Source of the DNA: Promethearchaeota archaeon
GTDB lineage: Archaea; Asgardarchaeota; Lokiarchaeia; Sigyniarchaeales; SOKP01
Assembly: GCA_048941285.1 (NCBI GenBank)
Contig: JBHLNS010000005.1
Span: 66,169-130,168, forward strand
Reading direction: 5' to 3'
Length of the DNA stretch: 64,000 nt
The notes under the pieces were generated by a model, which saw only the letters and a program-made list of their open reading frames with translations, was not told where the DNA came from and searched no databases. A program made the translations under genes and the position numbers. This document shows positions 342-22,181 of the stretch, one piece after another. Position 1 is the first letter of the stretch, and each line of letters begins with the position of its first letter.

Positions 342-571
342 ATGACAGAATATAAAAGAGCAAAATGTCCCCAATGTGGCAATGAGAACCCACGCAAGCT
401 TCATGAAGAACCGGATAAAAATAATGTGCTATACTACAGCATAGGTAAAGCTATTTCAGCATACCGCTGAGGCAGGGCACTCCGGTTTATGCAAAATTTA
501 AATTTACATAAAATTTAGAGGCAACATCCATGAAATGCGGGGATTGCGGGAGTCTGTTCAAGAAGAACTAA
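342..571 (+). CDS. Small zinc-ribbon protein (56 aa) split by two BHB introns; exons 342-442, 472-495, 526-571
   Basis: Spliced: MTEYKRAKCPQCGNENPRKLHEEPDKNNVLYYSMQGTPVYAKSMKCGDCGSLFKKN, with two CxxC knuckles. The unspliced frame stops at TGA 468-470. Confidence 0.85.
443..471 (+). other. 29-nt BHB intron 1 in the zinc-ribbon mRNA
   Basis: Central helix CAGC(437-440)/GCUG(466-469); bulges AU^A and AG^G; intron stem GGUA/UACC; exon stem GUGCU/GGCAC. Ligation creates AUG and restores the frame. Confidence 0.88.
496..525 (+). other. 30-nt BHB-like intron 2 in the zinc-ribbon mRNA
   Basis: Central helix UGCA(490-493)/GGCA(520-523), 3 of 4 paired; bulges AA^A and AC^A; 9-bp intron stem UUUAAAUUU/AAAUUUAGA; removes in-frame TAA 509-511. 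Confidence 0.78.
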
Positions 572-658
572 ATTGTAAAAGTTATAATTTAATTTTTTAT
601 TTTTATAATTTTTATGTTAGGTAGTTTCATTTATTATCCAATTTCATTATTTCTTATA

Positions 659-1885
659 TTAGATTAAAGATAAAACTATTTTATTTTGAGCTTTCAACAT
701 ATCTTCCATAATAAGTTCCATCGCATCTTTGATATCCGGATTATTATCAGGAATACTACGTTTAGCATTCACACTTGCCATAAGGACTTCATTTAGTCCA
801 CGTAAAATCATATCTGGGCTATACCAAGGTCTTTGTGAAGCCCACCATTGTTGACATGAGTGAATTCCGCGATCTAACAAATTTCTTGCGTTATCAAAGA
901 TCCTTTTCTTTTCATTATCCATTCCATCTCGATATTTTGATGCTAAATGAATTAAGGTGAGGGCATACATAAAAAATCTATGTTGTTCAATATGTATTTC
1001 ATTTTGCGGGTTGAACCATAATGGGAAAGGCACGTCAGTAGCAATGTCATATGGCATTGTTGACCAACTTGAATCACGTGGAATTTGAGTAAACCCTTTA
1101 GGAAATCTATCTACTATTTCTGATAAAGTAGATATTTTTATATCATGTCGATGAGGGAGTGCTTGAAACAATGGGATTAAAAAGTTACTTATTGCATGTT
1201 TAACATGGTGTCCAAAAGTTTCACCATCCATAGCTAGTATAACATAATAGTCTTGAGATGTTTGCTTGTAATATAGACGTTTAATAAATGAATCTATATT
1301 ATTAATTTTATCAAAAGCGCAGTCAATTGAAATATAATCATCCCTAAAAAGTAGCTTAAGTCCATTAGGATGGACTGATATATAATTCGTAGGAAATTCT
1401 GCGGATGTGTTAGCAATTCCACTCATAATTATCCAATCAAAACCAGCTTTTTTCACGATTTTGAATACTTCTTCAGATACAGCCATTTCAGGAGGAAAAA
1501 ATCCACGAGGATTATAAAGCTTCCCAAAGAAATGTCTATTAGTATCATTATTTAAAATTATTTGGCGCTTAACTTCGGGTTCTGGGATTAAAGGAAGCAG
1601 AGGATGAAACTTTCCAGACCCAGTAAATTCAATTTGTCCTTTAGAGGCTAAAGTAATAATTGCTCCAATTAAATCGTCATATCCAAAATCATGTAATTGT
1701 TCGGTTAATGTTCCATTAATGTTTAAAGTAATTTTCGCCAGAGGGTTATCCCTTAATGCATCGATTATTGGCTTATAGGATTCATTTACTATTTGTTTGA
1801 TTACTATTGGGATTTGAACTGGAGGTTGATAAATATGAAATAAAAAGGCAAAATAAACGACCATATAATAAATTAAAAAATCCAC
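659..1885 (-). CDS. Glycoside hydrolase family 57 protein
   Basis: HIYQP, FHPLLPLI, FFPPEMA and MDGETFGHH motifs; true start probably ATG at 1864. Confidence 0.85.
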   Translation of the reverse strand: MDFLIYYMVVYFAFLFHIYQPPVQIPIVIKQIVNESYKPIIDALRDNPLAKITLNINGTLTEQLHDFGYDDLIGAIITLASKGQIEFTGSGKFHPLLPLIPEPEVKRQIILNNDTNRHFFGKLYNPRGFFPPEMAVSEEVFKIVKKAGFDWIIMSGIANTSAEFPTNYISVHPNGLKLLFRDDYISIDCAFDKINNIDSFIKRLYYKQTSQDYYVILAMDGETFGHHVKHAISNFLIPLFQALPHRHDIKISTLSEIVDRFPKGFTQIPRDSSWSTMPYDIATDVPFPLWFNPQNEIHIEQHRFFMYALTLIHLASKYRDGMDNEKKRIFDNARNLLDRGIHSCQQWWASQRPWYSPDMILRGLNEVLMASVNAKRSIPDNNPDIKDAMELIMEDMLKAQNKIVLSLI

Positions 1886-1927
1886 TTTTTTTAATCTTCA
1901 TAATTCTTACGCGTAATGATCATAAAA

Positions 1928-2674
1928 TTATTTTAAAATTAGATCATAGATTTCTCTCATCCTTTCGACACTAATTTGCCCTTCTGCTGTCTTTTCTTCT
2001 AAGAAAGCATAAGTCAAATGAGAACCTACAATAATACAATTAATTCTAGAGAAAATCCCTAATTCTCCCATACAGAATGAGATAATTCTTTTATTAGAAC
2101 TAGAGAATTCTTTACATAGTCTCAAAGGAATTAGATTATCGTCAAAGGTTTGAGCCGTAAAAACAATTTTATAGATGCTGTCTCTAATTAAATTTAGATC
2201 TAGGTTTAACTCTTGAGTCAGCTTTTTATTGAAATTGTCTATATATTTTGTTGTTTCATCAAAGGATAATGTCCTTTCGAAATTGTGGTATGAAAAAATC
2301 AATTTAACTCCGTTTTGATAAGCCAAATTGATTATTTCAACTAAAAATTTGTCTTCAGTATTCATTTCAAAGTCAACATAATTAGGTCTAGCAAAAATAA
2401 ACATTTTATAAATTTTGAATCGATCGTCTTGTTTTAATTGAATTTGACCTCCTTCAGATATATTTCTGAGGGTAAAGATAACTGAAGCATGGGGGTGAAT
2501 TATAATCAATAAATTTCTTATGAACTCCATTGAAATGCTTTCAATATTTTGAATATAATCAAATCTCAATTCAATTAGATTAACTTTTGATTTTATTGCT
2601 TTATCAATTACTGGTTTCAGTTCTTTAATACTTGAATATCTAATTGGAATTGGAATACATAGATTATATTTCAT
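1928..2674 (-). CDS. aroD: Type I 3-dehydroquinate dehydratase
   Basis: IELRFD, IFTLRxxxEGG, SYHNF, FCMGELGIFSR, TAEGQ. Confidence 0.9.
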   Translation of the reverse strand: MKYNLCIPIPIRYSSIKELKPVIDKAIKSKVNLIELRFDYIQNIESISMEFIRNLLIIIHPHASVIFTLRNISEGGQIQLKQDDRFKIYKMFIFARPNYVDFEMNTEDKFLVEIINLAYQNGVKLIFSYHNFERTLSFDETTKYIDNFNKKLTQELNLDLNLIRDSIYKIVFTAQTFDDNLIPLRLCKEFSSSNKRIISFCMGELGIFSRINCIIVGSHLTYAFLEEKTAEGQISVERMREIYDLILK

Positions 2675-2700
2675 GATTTAGAATAAATAAAAAAGAAATT

Positions 2701-3345
2701 TTATATTCCTATTATTTTTTTTATATCATCATTTGTAAAACTCAATGTATCTTTAGCATCAACTTTTTTCAGTTTTCCTCTTTTTTTATAATATTTAATG
2801 ATTGGTTTGGCATTTTTTTCATAAGCGTCTAATCTACTTTTTAGTGTTTCTTCATTGTCATCACTTCTTTGTTCAAATTTAATCTCAGCACCACATTTAT
2901 CACAAATACCTTCAACTCTAGTGGGGAGAGTATATTTGTTATAGATTTCTCCACAGTTCTTACAGCTAAATCGACCTAAAATTCTTTTAAATATAATATC
3001 TCTAGACACATGTAATAATAGAAGCAAATCTATTTCTGTTATATCTGATAATGCTTCGGCTTGATGTAATGTTCGAGGAAATCCATCAAGGATAAATCCA
3101 TTTTTTTTAACATCTTCTTTATTCAATCTATCCCGTACCATTTCTATAGTTACGTCATCAGGGACTAATTCTCCCTTATCCATATAACTTTTTGCTTTCA
3201 TTCCCAAAGTCGTTTCGCTTTTTAAATTTTCTCGAAATATATCTCCAGTACTAATATGTACAATTTCTGGTACTACTTTTTTTATCTGCCCTGAAAAAGT
3301 GCCTTTTCCTGCTCCTGGTGGGCCAAATAAGATTAATTTTTTCAT
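2701..3345 (-). CDS. adk: Adenylate kinase, bacterial/eukaryote type with zinc-binding LID
   Basis: GPPGAGKGT, HISTGDIFR, LDGFPRT, CxxC...CxxC LID, RSDD. Confidence 0.95.
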   Translation of the reverse strand: MKKLILFGPPGAGKGTFSGQIKKVVPEIVHISTGDIFRENLKSETTLGMKAKSYMDKGELVPDDVTIEMVRDRLNKEDVKKNGFILDGFPRTLHQAEALSDITEIDLLLLLHVSRDIIFKRILGRFSCKNCGEIYNKYTLPTRVEGICDKCGAEIKFEQRSDDNEETLKSRLDAYEKNAKPIIKYYKKRGKLKKVDAKDTLSFTNDDIKKIIGI

Positions 3346-3428
3346 GATTATTCAAAGTTTTTTTTATTTGTAGATAAGTTAATAGGACATTAGTTAAAAT
3401 CATTTTGTCCCACAGTATTTTAATATTT

Positions 3429-4016
3429 CTATCCTGTAAAAAGTGAATATTCTATTTTTTTAGTTAAATAGTCAACTATTCTCTTTTCTCTTAAGCCAAA
3501 TACGTTGGAAAAATCGTTTTTTATAGAAGAACCATAGTAAGAATTACCAAAAAATGTTTTTGATCTCTTTATTGATTCTAATAGTAGTTTTTTATTTCCT
3601 ATGTGAAGATAAATTGATATATCATTAATAATTAAAATCTTTGTTGGATTTTCAGTAAAAATTTTTAATACTTTAAAAGTTTTTTTAAAATTATTACAAG
3701 CAATTTCATAAAGTTCTTTTTTATTTCGTGCTTTAAGTCGAGGGGGAATAATTCCTCCTTCAAGAGATATATTATTACAAATAATAGAATTTTCGTAGAA
3801 ATCTATTATCTTACCTCCAATTTTAACATTATTAATTAGTTCTTTTACAGGGGCAAAATCTAGAATACTTATTTCCTTTGGGTTGAATTTTTTTGTTTCT
3901 ATGAGAAATTGGACAAATTTAGCAGTATAATATGTCTTTTTTGTATCAGTTTCTCCATATAAGAGAGTCTTACTACCAATAAAATTTTCAAAGCTAAAAT
4001 TATTTTGAGATAACAT
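3429..4016 (-). CDS. Hypothetical P-loop-like protein with degenerate Walker A
   Basis: LLYGETDTKKT and LIINDISIYL Walker-like motifs. Confidence 0.55.
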   Translation of the reverse strand: MLSQNNFSFENFIGSKTLLYGETDTKKTYYTAKFVQFLIETKKFNPKEISILDFAPVKELINNVKIGGKIIDFYENSIICNNISLEGGIIPPRLKARNKKELYEIACNNFKKTFKVLKIFTENPTKILIINDISIYLHIGNKKLLLESIKRSKTFFGNSYYGSSIKNDFSNVFGLREKRIVDYLTKKIEYSLFTG

Positions 4017-4028
4017 AAGTTAATTAAA

Positions 4029-4598
4029 TTATTTTTGAAAGAAATCTTTCCATGAAATCCCTTGATGTTTCAATAATTTTAACATTAGAAATCCTAAAAT
4101 AGATCCAGGTATACTAGCAGCAGCGAATACTCCCCACCAGTAAAATAGAGTGACTGGTGAAATAAAATTGGCGATAGTTGCTGCGATAAATACAGTGCCT
4201 ATGGGATCTGTTAAGGCGGCATATTCCACGTATTGGGGCTTTTTTTTTCGCAAAATATAGGCTGTGATTCCAACGATAAAAGCACCTGAAATACCTCCAT
4301 GAAAAGCATGGATTGAGCCAATTCCTAGAGGATATCTAAAAATTGCGATACCTAGGGAAGTTGTGCAAGCAAATGATACCCCTATTAGAACTCCCGTCAT
4401 TCCATTAATAAAATGGGCCATGGGAAAAATTTTTGGACCTCCTAAAATCTCAACAAATGCAAAGGGATTGAAAAGGGCTAAAACAATGCCAATACATATA
4501 AAAATAGCACTTGTGGCTACCCTTTTCGTAAGGTTAGCTTGAATTAAATATTTCTCTTTTTCTTCACTAAGTTTTAAGTCAGAATTTGATTCATTCAT
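4029..4598 (-). CDS. thiW: ECF transporter S component, ThiW family
   Basis: FPMAHFIN, GSIHAFHGG, DPIGT; multi-pass membrane protein. Confidence 0.8.
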   Translation of the reverse strand: MNESNSDLKLSEEKEKYLIQANLTKRVATSAIFICIGIVLALFNPFAFVEILGGPKIFPMAHFINGMTGVLIGVSFACTTSLGIAIFRYPLGIGSIHAFHGGISGAFIVGITAYILRKKKPQYVEYAALTDPIGTVFIAATIANFISPVTLFYWWGVFAAASIPGSILGFLMLKLLKHQGISWKDFFQK

Positions 4599-4702
4599 TT
4601 TTTTAGATTCTTTAAGATATCTATTTTAATATTTAGGTTACAATAATCTGAAAGATAAATTTCTTTAAAGTTTAATCATATTTTAAATTAATTTATAAAT
4701 CA

Positions 4703-5395
4703 TTGATAAGAAAGATAAAGACTATGAAGCTTGGAGATAATAGTATAGAACCAACAAAAATTTTATGTTTAGGGCGTAATTATTTGGAACATGCAAAGGA
4801 AATGAAAGCAATGATTCCAAAGGAGCCAGTATTTTTTGTCAAAACGTTAAATACATTAGTAACTGATGGGAATCCGATAATATACCCGAAAATATTGTAC
4901 GAGAATCAAGAGTACAATCAAGTAGATCATGAAGTAGAATTGGCATTTATAATATCTCAGACTTGTAAAAATATTCAAGCTGAGAACGCCTATAAATATA
5001 TCGAAGGTTATACAATTTTTCTTGACATTACTGCTAGAAAAATGCAGATAAGTGATAGAAGTATTAATTTACCATGGTATAGAAGCAAAAATTTCGATAC
5101 TTTTGGACCTATTGGCCCAAGAATAACTCCTTGTGCCAACATAGTAGATCCTCATAATTTAGAAATTCAATTAATGATCAATGGAAATATTCGTCAAAAA
5201 TCAAATACAAAAAATATGATCTTCAAAATCCCTAAAATCTTAGCATTTCTATCTAAATTTATTACTTTGGTTCCCGGGGATATTATCGCAACAGGTACTC
5301 CAAGTGGAGTTGGACCTATCCAACCAGGAGATATTATTGAAGCTTCTATAGAAAAAATAGGAAAAATTATACATAGCGTTATTCTGGAAGAATAA
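4703..5395 (+). CDS. Fumarylacetoacetate hydrolase family protein
   Basis: LGRNYLEH, DHEVEL, SKNFDTFGPIGP, GDIIATGTPSGVG. Confidence 0.92.
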   Translation: MIRKIKTMKLGDNSIEPTKILCLGRNYLEHAKEMKAMIPKEPVFFVKTLNTLVTDGNPIIYPKILYENQEYNQVDHEVELAFIISQTCKNIQAENAYKYIEGYTIFLDITARKMQISDRSINLPWYRSKNFDTFGPIGPRITPCANIVDPHNLEIQLMINGNIRQKSNTKNMIFKIPKILAFLSKFITLVPGDIIATGTPSGVGPIQPGDIIEASIEKIGKIIHSVILEE

Positions 5396-5573
5396 TTTGA
5401 AGCACATATTGTTTAAATTAGTTTAATTCTAATTTGGCATTATTTTCTGTTGATAAAAATAAGAAAATAATACCAAAAAGTGCATTAATAGCTTCTGAAT
5501 CCTATAAAATTATTGATGAAATCATAAAATTCGCGACTTAAAATTTATTAAGAAAAATCAATACTAAAACATA

Positions 5574-5759
5574 ATGAATATAGAAGTTAGTGAAGATACT
5601 AAGAAAAAAATCTGTGAATTGATCTCGATACCTGGGATTGAAATCGAGGAAATTGTTAAAAAAGTAAATTTAGATTATGATACCATAATAGAGATTTTAT
5701 CTGAGGAGTATTTTAGATGTAATCTCGACCATGGACGCAGACTTTGTTGTAGATTTTAA
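5574..5759 (+). CDS. Small hypothetical helical (HTH-like) protein ending in CCRF
   Basis: 61-aa ATG ORF with protein-like composition. Confidence 0.55.
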   Translation: MNIEVSEDTKKKICELISIPGIEIEEIVKKVNLDYDTIIEILSEEYFRCNLDHGRRLCCRF

Positions 5760-5920
5760 AATCATCCTTTTTCTCCCACATGAACTTGGAGGAATGACAT
5801 AATTAGATTATCAAATAGTTTTAAACATATAAGGATATGATATTTTGTTTTAGATATTACATATGAATGATTTTAATAAAATTTTTTAATATTGTTATAT
5901 TCTAAATCACACTAAGTTTA

Positions 5921-6031
5921 AAATATATTTTTCTAAGAAACTTAGGACGCAAATTAAAGCGGTTTCAATATATAATAGATATTGAATAAGTAATTCACGA
6001 TAATTACGCGTTCTTGATCTTAGGAATATTT
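5921..6031 (+). promoter_or_regulatory. Putative structured 5' leader of the rpl11-rpl1-rpl10-rpl12 operon
   Basis: Closing stems UUCUAAGA/UCUUAGGA and AGGACGC/GCGUUCU; internal hairpins UUCAAUAU/AUAUUGAA and GUAAUU/AAUUAC. Confidence 0.45.
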
Positions 6032-6069
6032 TTTAAATTATAATGAGAAAAATAAAACGGTGAGTTTAT

Positions 6070-6600
6070 GTGAGTGAAAAAGGAAAAATAATTGTAAAGG
6101 CCCTTGTGACAGGTGGGAGAGTATAAATTATCAATCACATCGATTAAGCCCCGAATGCGTCAGGAGGACCTCCTATTGGCCCAGCTGTTGGCCCGACAGG
6201 GATAAATATTAAAGATGTAGTTGATGAGATCAACAAGCAAACTACTGTCTTTAAGGGACTAACGGTACCAGTTAGAATTGAATGTGACGCAGAAACAAAA
6301 CAGTTTGAAATTTTTATTGAAACACCATCTACAGCATCACTTTTACTTAAAGAAGTTGGTGCCGAAAAAGGAAGTTCTGCTGCTTCAGAACAAAAAATTG
6401 GTAATTTAACGCTTGAACAAATTCAAAACGTTGTTGATGGTAAAAAAGAGAAATTTTTAGAAAAGACTTATAAAGCTGCTATAAAATCAGTGTTAGGAAC
6501 AGCATTATCTGTAGGTTTAACAGTTGAAGGAGAAGATCCTAGAATCATCCAAAAAAGAATTGAAAATGGAGAATACGATGATAAAATAAGAGGTGAATAA
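6070..6600 (+). CDS. rpl11: 50S ribosomal protein uL11, interrupted by a 36-nt BHB intron; exons 6070-6119 and 6156-6600
   Basis: Spliced [46 protein letters not shown]...TPSTASLLLKE...GTALSVG (164 aa), in the canonical position before rpl1-rpl10-rpl12; unspliced frame has TAA at 6124 and 6145. Confidence 0.93.
6120..6155 (+). other. 36-nt BHB-type intron in rpl11 mRNA
   Basis: Central helix UGGG(6114-6117)/CCCG(6150-6153); bulges AG^A and AA^U; h' GU/GC; distal exon stem UGAC/GUCA. Boundaries could shift by 1-3 nt. Confidence 0.82.
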
Positions 6601-11242: not shown

Positions 11243-11373
11243 CGCAACGGGAGGGATTTATTCTTATAAGAAGTATTTTCTTATACATTGAACCCCCGAG
11301 TGCATTCACACACCGGCTTTCTGGGATAGCATCCACTCCAAGCCGGCGCCGTACCGGGCTAGGCAACCGTTGC
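11243..11373 (-). tRNA. tRNA-Ser(GGA) with two BHB introns (17 nt at 37/38, 11335-11319; 30 nt at 58/59, 11287-11258)
   Basis: Acceptor GCAACGG/CCGUUGC, G73, long variable arm, anticodon stem CCGGC/GCCGG; central helices UUGG/CCAG and GUUC/GAAU; mature length 84 nt. Confidence 0.9.
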
Positions 11374-19453: not shown

Positions 19454-19595
19454 TGCATATCAACTTATTCAATAATTTTTTATTAATTAACTAAAGTCTC
19501 TTTTTATTATTTCAATTATAAATTAAAAAGATAAAAATTTTTATCTTTTTTCTGATTTAATTAGTTTATAATAATTAATCATTTTCAATTTACTT

Positions 19596-19741
19596 GGGCC
19601 ATTAGCTCAGATTGGTTAACAAGTTTTTATATGCTTGGTCAACAAGCGCAGGTCTTATAAATGACTATCGGACATACAGTAAATAGAACTGTCCGATAAA
19701 GTAAAAACCTGAGATCCGGGGTTCAAATCCCCGATGGCCCA
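19596..19741 (+). tRNA. tRNA-Ile(UAU) with two BHB introns (25 nt at 21/22, 19619-19643; 46 nt at 38/39, 19661-19706)
   Basis: Acceptor GGGCCAU/AUGGCCC, A73, anticodon arm CAGGU-CUUAUAA-ACCUG, T-arm CGGGG-UUCAAAU-CCCCG; central helices UGGU/GUCA and UUAU/GUAA; mature length 75 nt. Confidence 0.88.
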
Positions 19742-19898
19742 TTTTCAATAGATTTTTTAAGAAATAATTTTGATATTTAGACTAATATTCGTGAAACATC
19801 TATTTTACGCTTATTCATATATACCTTAAGGATATGTCTAGATATATTTGCATAATATTATTGATTAAAATTAGGAGTAAAAATATTAGAAAGAAGTT

Positions 19899-22088: not shown

Positions 22089-22181
22089 TGGCGGCCCTCG
22101 AGGGGAATCGAACCCCTACCCCTCCGCAGGATAACTGGGTTTGAAGCCCAGCGTCAGAGACCACTCCAACCGTCAAGGGCC
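22089..22181 (-). tRNA. selC: tRNA-Sec(UCA), 9/4 archaeal/eukaryotic fold, CCA encoded, intron-less
   Basis: 9-bp acceptor GGCCCUUGA/UCGAGGGCC, 7-bp D stem, UCA anticodon, long variable arm, 4-bp T stem, G73. Confidence 0.95.

What the first reader, a model, noticed from the sequence alone, without database searches (positions are those of the whole stretch)
342..6600. tRNA-type (BHB) introns in protein-coding genes: a candidate mRNA-splicing system in an Asgard-like archaeon
Seen: three short insertions (29, 30 and 36 nt) break two protein-coding genes. Each folds into the same bulge-helix-bulge layout as the four tRNA introns in this window: a 4-nt exon helix, a 3-nt bulge, an intron hairpin, the 4-nt complement and a second 3-nt bulge. 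Cutting after the second nucleotide of each bulge restores an uninterrupted ORF every time. All seven introns end with the helix complement followed by A-N. Established: archaeal EndA cuts BHB motifs and RtcB ligates the exons; the well-documented archaeal mRNA case is cbf5 in some Crenarchaeota; eukaryotic HAC1/XBP1 use a related non-spliceosomal cut-and-ligate route. Inference: this lineage routinely splices mRNAs with its tRNA machinery, including an essential ribosomal protein gene and a multi-intron gene. That bears on intron origins in eukaryotes and means ORF callers silently miss genes here. I cannot check the literature for prior description.
Basis: partly seen in the sequence, partly recalled or inferred. 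Interest (0 to 1): 0.95.

Follow-up and report, generated by a model that had tools for sequence, protein, structure and literature searches.

The report
tRNA-type introns inside Asgard protein genes
Short introns of the kind normally cut out of tRNAs interrupt the genes for ribosomal protein L11, a small zinc-ribbon protein and other proteins in this Asgard archaeon and its relatives, so gene finders will miss or truncate these genes.

Summary
Three inserts break two genes: 443-471 and 496-525 in a zinc-ribbon gene (342-571), and 6120-6155 in the only rpl11 (6070-6600). Cutting after the second base of each bulge gives products that match intron-free orthologues in the same genus, down to codons rebuilt across the joint. 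The organism is a Promethearchaeota (Lokiarchaeia-type) MAG.

The phenomenon is wider than reported.
- rpl11 carries inserts at three sites; 12 of 24 same-genus loci have at least one, and one locus has all three.
- rpoA1 is interrupted in 9 of 51 genomes, at four places.
- In this genome rpoA1 and a GH57 gene each carry a 30-nt insert.

Base-pair covariation supports the bulge-helix-bulge fold in all four families tested. The genome has two EndA paralogues and one RtcB, and cbf5 is uninterrupted.

Limits:
- No RNA data could be obtained, so splicing is inferred.
- Such introns are few: a whole-genome comparison with one relative found four interrupted genes here, counting the zinc-ribbon gene, which that comparison could not test, and one in the relative.
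- The motif plus ORF repair alone is not above chance genome-wide.

My six full-text searches found only the crenarchaeal cbf5 case and Asgard tRNA introns.

The parts
342..442 (+). Zinc-ribbon gene, exon 1 (CPQCG motif)
   Evidence: Translation. The 33-aa exon is conserved in 53 of 54 genomes of the genus.
443..471 (+). Intron 1 of the zinc-ribbon gene, 29 nt. Central helix 437-440 CAGC with 466-469 GCUG; bulges AUA and AGG; inner hairpin GGUA/UACC.
   Evidence: Present at the same site in 26 of 30 loci and absent in 4. In the four loci without the intron the coding sequence reads YYSMQGTPVY, the product predicted for the spliced gene here. The Met codon is rebuilt as AT|G. Covariation: 97.2% of cells paired, 7 pairs with a change on both sides, 0 of 500 shuffles as high. 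The minimum-energy fold draws the helices.
472..495 (+). Zinc-ribbon gene, exon 2 (8 codons)
   Evidence: Aligns to QGTPVYAK of intron-free orthologues.
496..525 (+). Intron 2 of the zinc-ribbon gene, 30 nt, seen only in this genome. A 9-bp AU hairpin at 497-505/511-519; central helix UGCA/GGCA with an A.G mismatch. Cuts at 497-526 or 498-527 give the same product.
   Evidence: A 26-nt gap against G015 and G006 in blastn and a 30-nt in-HSP insert with a stop. Removing it restores the orthologue length, AK.MKCG. The exact cut sites are the least certain of the three.
526..571 (+). Zinc-ribbon gene, exon 3 (KCGDCG motif, stop at 569-571)
6070..6119 (+). rpl11 exon 1 (GTG start, 16 codons plus 2 nt)
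   Evidence: It aligns to the N-terminus of intron-free orthologues. Exon 2 starts at Pfam Ribosomal_L11_N profile position 10 of 58.
6120..6155 (+). rpl11 intron at site A, 36 nt. Central helix 6114-6117 UGGG with 6150-6153 CCCG; bulges AGA and AAU; inner hairpin AAUC/GAUU; outer helix UGAC/GUCA.
   Evidence: A 36-nt gap against G006. The joint AG|U gives Ser, as in GGSASGG of 12 intron-free loci. The same site is occupied in 10 distinct sequences. Covariation: 92.9% paired, 4 pairs with a change on both sides, 0 of 500 shuffles as high, including U-A to A-U in the central helix.
6156..6600 (+). rpl11 exon 2
   Evidence: Pfam Ribosomal_L11_N and Ribosomal_L11. It is the only rpl11 match in the genome.
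19595..19742 (+). tRNA gene with intervening sequences, for comparison. The D-loop intron at 19618-19642 (25 nt) has helix UGGU/GUCA and ends in AC. A further insert of about 46 nt lies next to the anticodon loop.
   Evidence: A 25-nt gap against G015 at 19619-19643. The motif placement is my reading of the sequence.
11243..11373 (-). Second intron-bearing tRNA gene, for comparison. The T-loop intron at 11258-11287 (30 nt) has helix GUUC/GAAU and ends in AA. There is also an anticodon-loop insert.
   Evidence: Neither ARAGORN nor Rfam finds it in the window. The G022 orthologue without the T-loop insert scores 43.1 bits to Rfam tRNA. A 30-nt gap against G022 and G006.

Best explanation
These are archaeal bulge-helix-bulge (BHB) introns in pre-mRNAs. 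The likely sequence of events is as follows.
- The transcript folds so that four exon bases pair with four bases near the 3' end of the intron.
- Each strand carries a bulge just 3' of this helix.
- The tRNA-splicing endonuclease cuts after the second bulge base on each side. The genome has two EndA paralogues, read as a heteromeric enzyme that tolerates relaxed motifs.
- RtcB joins the exons and probably circularises the intron.
- Only the spliced mRNA encodes full-length L11, the zinc-ribbon protein, RNA polymerase subunit A' and the GH57 enzyme. Unspliced RNA meets a stop codon within or just after the insert.

Shown here: the inserts, their fold with covariation, the exact match of the predicted joints to intron-free orthologues, and the presence of the enzymes.

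Inferred: cleavage by EndA, ligation by RtcB, the subunit make-up of EndA, and the timing relative to translation.
For: 1. Exact joints. In rpl11 the joint AG|U restores the Ser of GGSASGG found in 12 intron-free same-genus loci. In the zinc-ribbon gene AU|G restores the Met of YYSMQG found in 4 intron-free loci. In rpoA1 the two exons cover Pfam RNA_pol_Rpb1_1 profile positions 2-73 and 74-312. In GH57 the bulge base (A or G) plus the first exon-2 bases give Ile or Val, as in the orthologues.

2. Presence or absence across species.
- rpl11 has three sites. Site A is in 3 loci, B in 3 and C in 8 of 24 same-genus loci; 12 have none and L024 has all three.
- Zinc-ribbon intron 1 is in 26 of 30 loci.
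- rpoA1 is interrupted in 9 of 51 matched genomes at four places.
- The GH57 frame is cut at 556 aa in 5 of 51 matched genomes, and the insert was seen in 4 of 30 loci read.

3. Covariation.

| Intron family | Cells paired | Pairs changed on both sides | Shuffles as high (of 500) |
|---|---|---|---|
| Zinc-ribbon intron 1 | 97.2% | 7 | 0 |
| rpl11 site C | 96.7% | 2 | 53 |
| rpl11 site B | 94.0% | 4 | 26 |
| rpl11 site A | 92.9% | 4 | 0 |

Versions of the structures slid by 1-3 columns pair only 17-64% of cells.

4. There is one rpl11 only, in a genome estimated 94% complete.

5. There are two EndA homologues, each with the N-terminal and catalytic domains, and one RtcB. Kaneta 2018 (PMC5829648, passages read) reports that Asgard archaea have (alpha-beta)2 EndA with the loop linked to broad specificity.

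6. The tRNA introns resolved in the same window follow the same cut rule.
Against: - There is no transcript evidence. No RNA run was listed as holding this DNA, and nothing was laid from three metatranscriptomes of the same study.
- Several motifs are not canonical. Zinc-ribbon intron 2 and the G022 intron have an A.G mismatch in the central helix. GH57 has only two Watson-Crick pairs flanked by A.G and G.A. rpl11 site B has U.U in 7 of 13 sequences. Where an outer helix can be drawn, the 3' bulge region is 5 nt, not 3.
- Fold stability is unremarkable for four of five regions (z-scores +0.53 to -1.52). Only rpoA1 stands out, at -3.53.
- The structures scored for covariation were derived from these same sequences, and the species are related, so the shuffle counts overstate the support.
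- A genome-wide scan for motif plus ORF repair shows no excess over cuts moved out of frame.
Confidence: 0.85

Rival explanations
1. Translational bypassing. The ribosome takes off before the insert and lands after it, as in phage T4 gene 60 or the yeast mitochondrial byp elements (both recalled from memory), so no RNA splicing is needed.
For: The inserts are short (28-37 nt), contain a hairpin and carry a stop codon soon after their start. In GH57 the insert is flanked by a direct repeat, ACGGAA, which could be read as matching take-off and landing sites.
Against: Conserved residues at the joints are encoded by codons split across the insert: AT|G Met in the zinc-ribbon gene, AG|T Ser at rpl11 site A, A|AC Asn at rpl11 site C. 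A hop between whole codons cannot produce these. No matching take-off and landing codons exist at rpl11 site A or zinc-ribbon intron 1. Covariation conserves the pairing between exon and intron 3' end, which bypassing does not need. tRNA genes in the same window carry the same kind of insert.
Confidence: 0.03
2. The interrupted genes are pseudogenes or decaying copies, and the inserts are junk.
For: Each insert brings in a stop codon or a frameshift. ORF repair by deleting an in-frame stretch is easy to get by chance: 28 of 32 deletion starts tried keep the frame open.
Against: rpl11 is single-copy. The rpoA1 query found a single place in this genome. Outside the inserts the exons stay open and are 74-100% identical to intron-free orthologues. 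The same inserts persist across many species with compensatory changes. No other lesions occur in these genes.
Confidence: 0.03
3. The inserts are removed from the RNA, but by something other than EndA and RtcB: an unknown nuclease and ligase pair, or self-cleavage.
For: Several motifs depart from the canonical bulge-helix-bulge form, with purine-purine mismatches in the central helix and 5-nt 3' bulges. No enzyme assay exists for this lineage.
Against: The cut rule is the same as for the tRNA introns in the window. No Rfam ribozyme or group I or II intron model matched the window. At 28-85 nt the inserts are too short for known self-splicing introns. EndA and RtcB are present.
Confidence: 0.07
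4. The inserts are assembly or binning artefacts.
For: The genome is a 101-contig MAG, and I could not inspect the raw DNA reads.
Against: The same inserts, at the same sites and with sequence divergence, appear in MAGs with many different isolate names and in two single-contig chromosomes.
Confidence: 0.01

Closest known systems
cbf5 pre-mRNA intron of Crenarchaeota (Watanabe 2002; Yoshinari 2006; Yokobori 2009, PMC2738675). I saw only the start of the 2009 abstract in search listings and the three citations in reference lists.
   Same: [quoted passage not shown] It is present or absent among related species, and it is linked to a hetero-oligomeric EndA.
   Different: The phylum differs (Promethearchaeota, an Asgard lineage). 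The genes differ: rpl11, rpoA1, a GH57 enzyme, a zinc-ribbon protein and an MBL-fold gene in a relative. The cbf5 gene of this genome is uninterrupted. Several sites occur per gene, up to three introns in one rpl11 and two in a 56-codon gene. One intron has a paralogous copy in the same gene.
Archaeal tRNA introns at canonical and non-canonical positions, including the heavily interrupted Asgard tRNA genes (bioRxiv 10.64898/2026.10.13.758758; abstract and one passage read)
   Same: Same motif and the same cut rule. Sizes are similar: the tRNA introns resolved here are 25-30 nt and the mRNA introns 28-37 nt. Repeated gains at different positions appear in related genomes. The tRNA genes of this window carry two inserts each.
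   Different: The host RNA is an mRNA, so the helix partners are coding sequence. The joint must keep a reading frame, and splicing must precede or compete with translation. That preprint does not use the word mRNA and mentions protein-coding genes only as neighbours.
HAC1 / XBP1 unconventional mRNA splicing in eukaryotes (recalled from memory, not checked here)
   Same: An mRNA is cut at two sites by a protein endonuclease and rejoined by a tRNA ligase (RtcB in animals), without a spliceosome.
   Different: The nuclease there is IRE1, which recognises stem-loops rather than EndA recognising a bulge-helix-bulge. That splicing is a regulated stress switch. Here splicing appears to be constitutively required.

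Membership tests
Archaeal BHB (EndA/RtcB) introns | A 4-bp central helix flanked on each strand by a 3-nt bulge on its 3' side | tested here: met
   Exact for zinc-ribbon intron 1, rpl11 sites A and C, and rpoA1. Relaxed for zinc-ribbon intron 2 and the G022 intron (3 bp plus A.G), GH57 (2 bp plus two G.A) and rpl11 site B (U.U in 7 of 13 sequences).
Archaeal BHB (EndA/RtcB) introns | Cuts at symmetric bulge positions give a functional joined RNA | tested here: met
   Cutting after the second bulge base reproduces the orthologue sequence at every resolved site, including split codons.
Archaeal BHB (EndA/RtcB) introns | The structure is conserved through compensatory changes | tested here: met
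   Support is weaker for rpl11 site C (2 pairs with a change on both sides, 53 of 500 shuffles as high).
Archaeal BHB (EndA/RtcB) introns | The organism encodes the splicing endonuclease and the RtcB ligase | tested here: met
   Two EndA homologues (104 and 67.5 bits to PF01974) and one RtcB (567.7 bits). The alpha/beta assignment is inferred, not tested.
Archaeal BHB (EndA/RtcB) introns | Spliced RNA and excised (circular) intron are observed; EndA cleaves in vitro | not testable with these tools
   No RNA run holds this DNA.
cbf5-type archaeal pre-mRNA intron | The intron lies in the cbf5 (TruB-family) gene | tested here: not met
   The TruB_N matches lie in one 337-aa open frame without stops.
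Programmed translational bypass elements | Matching take-off and landing codons, with the joint falling between whole codons | tested here: not met
   The joints split codons at zinc-ribbon intron 1 and rpl11 sites A and C. Only GH57 has a flanking repeat.
Group I / group II self-splicing introns | A ribozyme core of hundreds of nucleotides | tested here: not met
   The inserts are 28-85 nt. No Rfam intron family matched the window.

The most novel reading that the evidence does not exclude
BHB introns may be actively spreading in this Asgard genus. They would enter mRNAs as well as tRNAs wherever a 4-6-nt exon word can pair with the intron's 3' end. The route could be reverse splicing followed by copying into DNA, or local duplication.

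Three observations point this way:
- Four separate sites lie in the first 250 nt of rpoA1 and three in the first 100 nt of rpl11.
- One species (L049) has a second intron in the zinc-ribbon gene that is a sequence paralogue of intron 1. It sits behind the same CAGUAU exon word.
- Zinc-ribbon intron 2 here and the G022 MBL-fold-gene intron share the same 30-nt build behind a UGCA word.

If this is right, the closest prokaryotic relatives of eukaryotes would have a working route by which protein genes gain protein-spliced introns.
Probability: 0.3. Interest if true: 0.9.

Novelty: new variant of a known kind. Interest (0 to 1): 0.8.

Why it matters
- **Annotation.** Standard gene callers will report rpl11, rpoA1 and other genes of these Asgard genomes as missing, truncated or pseudogenes. 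That distorts completeness estimates, marker-gene trees and metabolic reconstructions.
- **Biology.** Expression of a ribosomal protein and of the catalytic subunit of RNA polymerase would depend on the tRNA-splicing enzymes. This poses the problem of how splicing is ordered relative to coupled translation in a cell without a nucleus.
- **Evolution.** The genus offers many natural pairs of genomes with and without an intron at the same site, plus at least one copied intron. That makes gain and loss of protein-spliced introns in mRNAs directly testable in the lineage nearest to eukaryotes.

Tried and rejected
- **RNA evidence.** The look-up of sequencing runs listed no RNA holder. Read laying on three metatranscriptomes of the same study laid nothing. 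This says nothing for or against expression.
- **Genome-wide scan for motif plus ORF repair**. There were about 2 million motif hits. After ORF filters the counts at the true cut equal those with the cut moved by 1-3 nt, so the scan has no power and I dropped it. The parallel-pairing decoy gave 4-5 times fewer loci once I required at least two G-C pairs. I read that as hairpins being common at gene ends, not as a sign of introns.
- **Intron families by sequence.** blastn-short of six introns against the genome gave only the query loci and chance words in the part of the output I saw, which was cut at 5000 characters and covered only the two zinc-ribbon introns.
- **Candidates rejected after inspection.**
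  - Window 5760-5868 (about 100 nt) lies after the stop codon of a small gene, so it is intergenic.
  - C30:106648-106699 is an in-frame indel in a 449-aa membrane protein that is open on the other strand.
  - C92, C32, C41, C69 and C89 in this genome, and most G022 candidates, lie upstream of start codons, in repeats or in shadow frames.
- **Left unresolved.**
  - I did not place a bulge-helix-bulge motif for the 65-nt and 85-nt rpoA1 inserts, or for the anticodon-side inserts of the two tRNAs.
  - A 33-nt difference in L254 rpoA1 was not examined.
  - The zinc-ribbon protein reached no Pfam or NCBIfam cut-off.
- **Other limits.** I did not ask for any paper's supplements. The supplements of the 2026 Asgard tRNA preprint could hold relevant loci.
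- **Literature.** Six full-text searches found no description of BHB introns in Asgard protein genes. Subscription-only papers are not covered.

Full report
**What is in the window.**

- **rpl11.** Frame 6070-6600 encodes ribosomal protein L11 but holds two in-frame TAA codons. The part after them matches Pfam Ribosomal_L11_N from profile position 10 and all of Ribosomal_L11.
- **Zinc-ribbon gene.** Frame 342 onwards starts a CPQCG zinc ribbon and stops after 42 codons. The matching KCGDCG half lies downstream in another frame.

**The three inserts and their joints.** That places the inserts at 443-471 (29 nt), 496-525 (30 nt) and 6120-6155 (36 nt).

Joining the exons in a script gives two clean products:
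- A 56-aa zinc-ribbon protein, 49 of 56 residues identical to an intron-free 57-aa orthologue.
- A 164-aa L11, 147 residues identical to an intron-free orthologue, with no gap.

The joints rebuild codons. AT|G gives the Met of YYSMQG, and AG|T gives the Ser of GGSASGG. Intron-free orthologues have exactly these residues. A ribosome hopping between whole codons could not produce this.

**Relatives.**
- *rpl11.* Among 24 same-genus rpl11 loci (L001-L024, one of them from this genome), 12 have no insert. Three carry site A, the site found in this genome. Three carry site B, after PPI. Eight carry site C, inside GIN|IK. One locus (L024) carries all three. A second collection adds more cases, including a 28-nt variant at site A. 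Six loci from other families of the order have no inserts at these three sites.
- *Zinc-ribbon gene.* The gene is found in 53 of 54 genomes of the genus. Intron 1 is present in 26 of 30 loci read and absent in 4. Intron 2 was seen only in this genome. One locus (L049) has a different second intron that is a sequence paralogue of intron 1. It sits behind the same CAGTAT exon word.
- *Copy number.* There is only one rpl11 match in this genome.

**Structure.** Minimum-energy folds draw the central helix for zinc-ribbon intron 1, rpl11 site A and rpoA1, but not for zinc-ribbon intron 2. Only rpoA1 is clearly more stable than shuffled sequence, with a z-score of -3.53.

Covariation is the stronger test:

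| Intron family | Distinct sequences | Cells paired | Pairs changed on both sides | Shuffles as high (of 500) |
|---|---|---|---|---|
| Zinc-ribbon intron 1 | 26 | 97.2% | 7 | 0 |
| rpl11 site A | 10 | 92.9% | 4 | 0 |
| rpl11 site B | 13 | 94.0% | 4 | 26 |
| rpl11 site C | 11 | 96.7% | 2 | 53 |

At rpl11 site A one of these double changes is a U-A to A-U swap in the central helix. Structures slid by 1-3 columns pair 17-64% of cells. The structures were drawn from these same sequences and the species are related, so the shuffle figures are generous.

**How common are such introns?** I made two motif-free comparisons.

1. *The 64-kb window against syntenic DNA of six relatives.* The relatives cover 14-58 kb of the window. 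This found only the three inserts in this genome and site C in G006.
2. *This genome against the whole 2.27-Mb contig of G022, by tblastn in both directions*.
   - In this genome it recovered rpl11 and two further cases. One is rpoA1 at C1:98368-98397 (30 nt, helix GGGC/GCCU, 7-bp hairpin), whose exons cover Pfam Rpb1 domain 1 positions 2-73 and 74-312. The other is a GH57 branching-enzyme-like gene at C70:13814-13843 (30 nt).
   - The unspliced frames stop at codons 80 and 24. The spliced frames run 987 and 571 codons.
   - G022 has one case, a 30-nt insert in an MBL-fold gene.

So four protein genes with five introns are known in this genome. This is a lower bound, because introns shared by both genomes, very short exons and genes without an orthologue are missed.

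In the genus, rpoA1 is interrupted in 9 of 51 matched genomes, at about nt 129, 233, 236 and 241-246, by inserts of 30-85 nt. The GH57 frame is cut short at the same length (556 aa) in 5 of 51 matched genomes, and I saw the insert in 4 of the 30 loci read.

**Departures from the textbook motif.**
- The GH57 central helix is ACGG against ACGG, two Watson-Crick pairs between A.G and G.A. One species has CCGA, which gives three pairs. Its hairpin shows compensatory changes: GCGA/UCGC, GUGA/UCAC and AUGA/UCAU.
- Zinc-ribbon intron 2, the G022 intron and the rpoA1 nt-129 intron each have a purine-purine mismatch at the inner end of the central helix.
- Where an outer exon-exon helix can be drawn (rpl11 site A, rpoA1, GH57), the 3' bulge region is 5 nt.
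- The cut rule still gives the right product in every resolved case.

**Enzymes.** The genome has two EndA homologues, each with the N-terminal and catalytic domains, and one RtcB. Kaneta 2018 (PMC5829648, passages read) reports (alpha-beta)2 EndA with the L1 loop in Asgard archaea and links that loop to relaxed motifs. The cbf5 gene of this genome is uninterrupted.

**tRNA genes in the window.** ARAGORN's default run and Rfam find only tRNA-Sec.
- With introns allowed, ARAGORN reports a gene at 19595-19742. I read it as carrying a 25-nt D-loop intron (19618-19642) and an insert of about 46 nt next to the anticodon loop.
- A second gene lies on the minus strand at 11243-11373. It has a 30-nt T-loop intron (11258-11287) and an anticodon-loop insert. 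Its G022 orthologue scores 43.1 bits to Rfam tRNA.
I placed the motif for two of them.

**Rivals.**
- *Bypassing* fails on the split codons.
- *Pseudogenes* fail on single copy, conserved exons and conserved inserts.
- *Artefacts* fail because the inserts recur in many MAGs.
- *Another nuclease* cannot be excluded without an assay.

**Literature.** Six full-text searches returned four relevant items:
- The cbf5 papers.
- EndA structure papers. The reference list of one from 2025 (PMC12397907, passages read) cites Watanabe 2002, Yoshinari 2006 and Yokobori 2009 on introns in archaeal protein-coding genes and archaeal pre-mRNA splicing.
- A 2020 Haloferax substrate survey (listing only).
- A 2026 preprint on Asgard tRNA introns, which does not mention mRNA.

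I found no description of these mRNA introns. Journals outside the library are not covered.

**Verdict.** This is a real feature and a new variant of a known kind. Splicing is inferred with about 0.85 confidence, and no RNA data were available.

Noticed in passing
G000:C1:98368-98397 (outside the window; L249:1369-1398): A 30-nt BHB intron in rpoA1 (RNA polymerase subunit A'), right after the GHFGH motif. The genus has at least four insert places in the first 250 nt of this gene.
   Followed up: yes
G000:C70:13814-13843 (outside the window; L250:815-844): A 30-nt insert in a GH57 / branching-enzyme-like gene, flanked by the direct repeat ACGGAA. Its central helix has two G.A-type mismatches. 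The same truncated open-frame length appears in G055, G042, G014 and G024, and I read the insert in the first three.
   Followed up: yes
L049 (G016), zinc-ribbon gene: A second intron about 24 nt downstream of intron 1. It is a close sequence copy of intron 1 and follows the same CAGTAT exon word. This hints at intron duplication or homing.
   Followed up: partly
window 11243-11373 (- strand): A tRNA gene with a long variable arm, a 30-nt T-loop intron and an anticodon-loop insert. ARAGORN and Rfam both miss it.
   Followed up: partly
window 19595-19742 (+ strand): ARAGORN calls this tRNA-Asp with one 58-nt intron. By eye it has a D-loop intron plus a separate insert next to the anticodon loop, and the loop reads CUUAUAA (anticodon UAU). 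Relatives carry further 30-31-nt inserts near 19713-19724.
   Followed up: partly
window 22089-22181 (- strand): A tRNA-Sec gene (Rfam 59.4 bits), so this Asgard genome probably uses selenocysteine. G006 has a 32-nt insert inside its copy.
   Followed up: no
window 5885-5990: An intergenic block upstream of rpl11 (CACTAAGTT ... CTTAGGACGC ... GCGGTTTCAATAT ... GATATTGAA) is conserved in all six genomes aligned. It may be a promoter or a leader regulatory element of the L11-L1-L10-L12 cluster.
   Followed up: no
window 5760-5868: An AT-rich insert of about 100 nt, unique to this genome, lies just after the stop codon of a conserved 61-aa gene (5574-5759). It is intergenic, not an intron.
   Followed up: yes
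G022:335853-335883 (- strand): A 30-nt insert in an MBL-fold (HxHxDH) gene of the relative G022. It has the same build as zinc-ribbon intron 2 of this window: UGCA word, 9-bp AU hairpin, GGCA, then A-N.
   Followed up: partly
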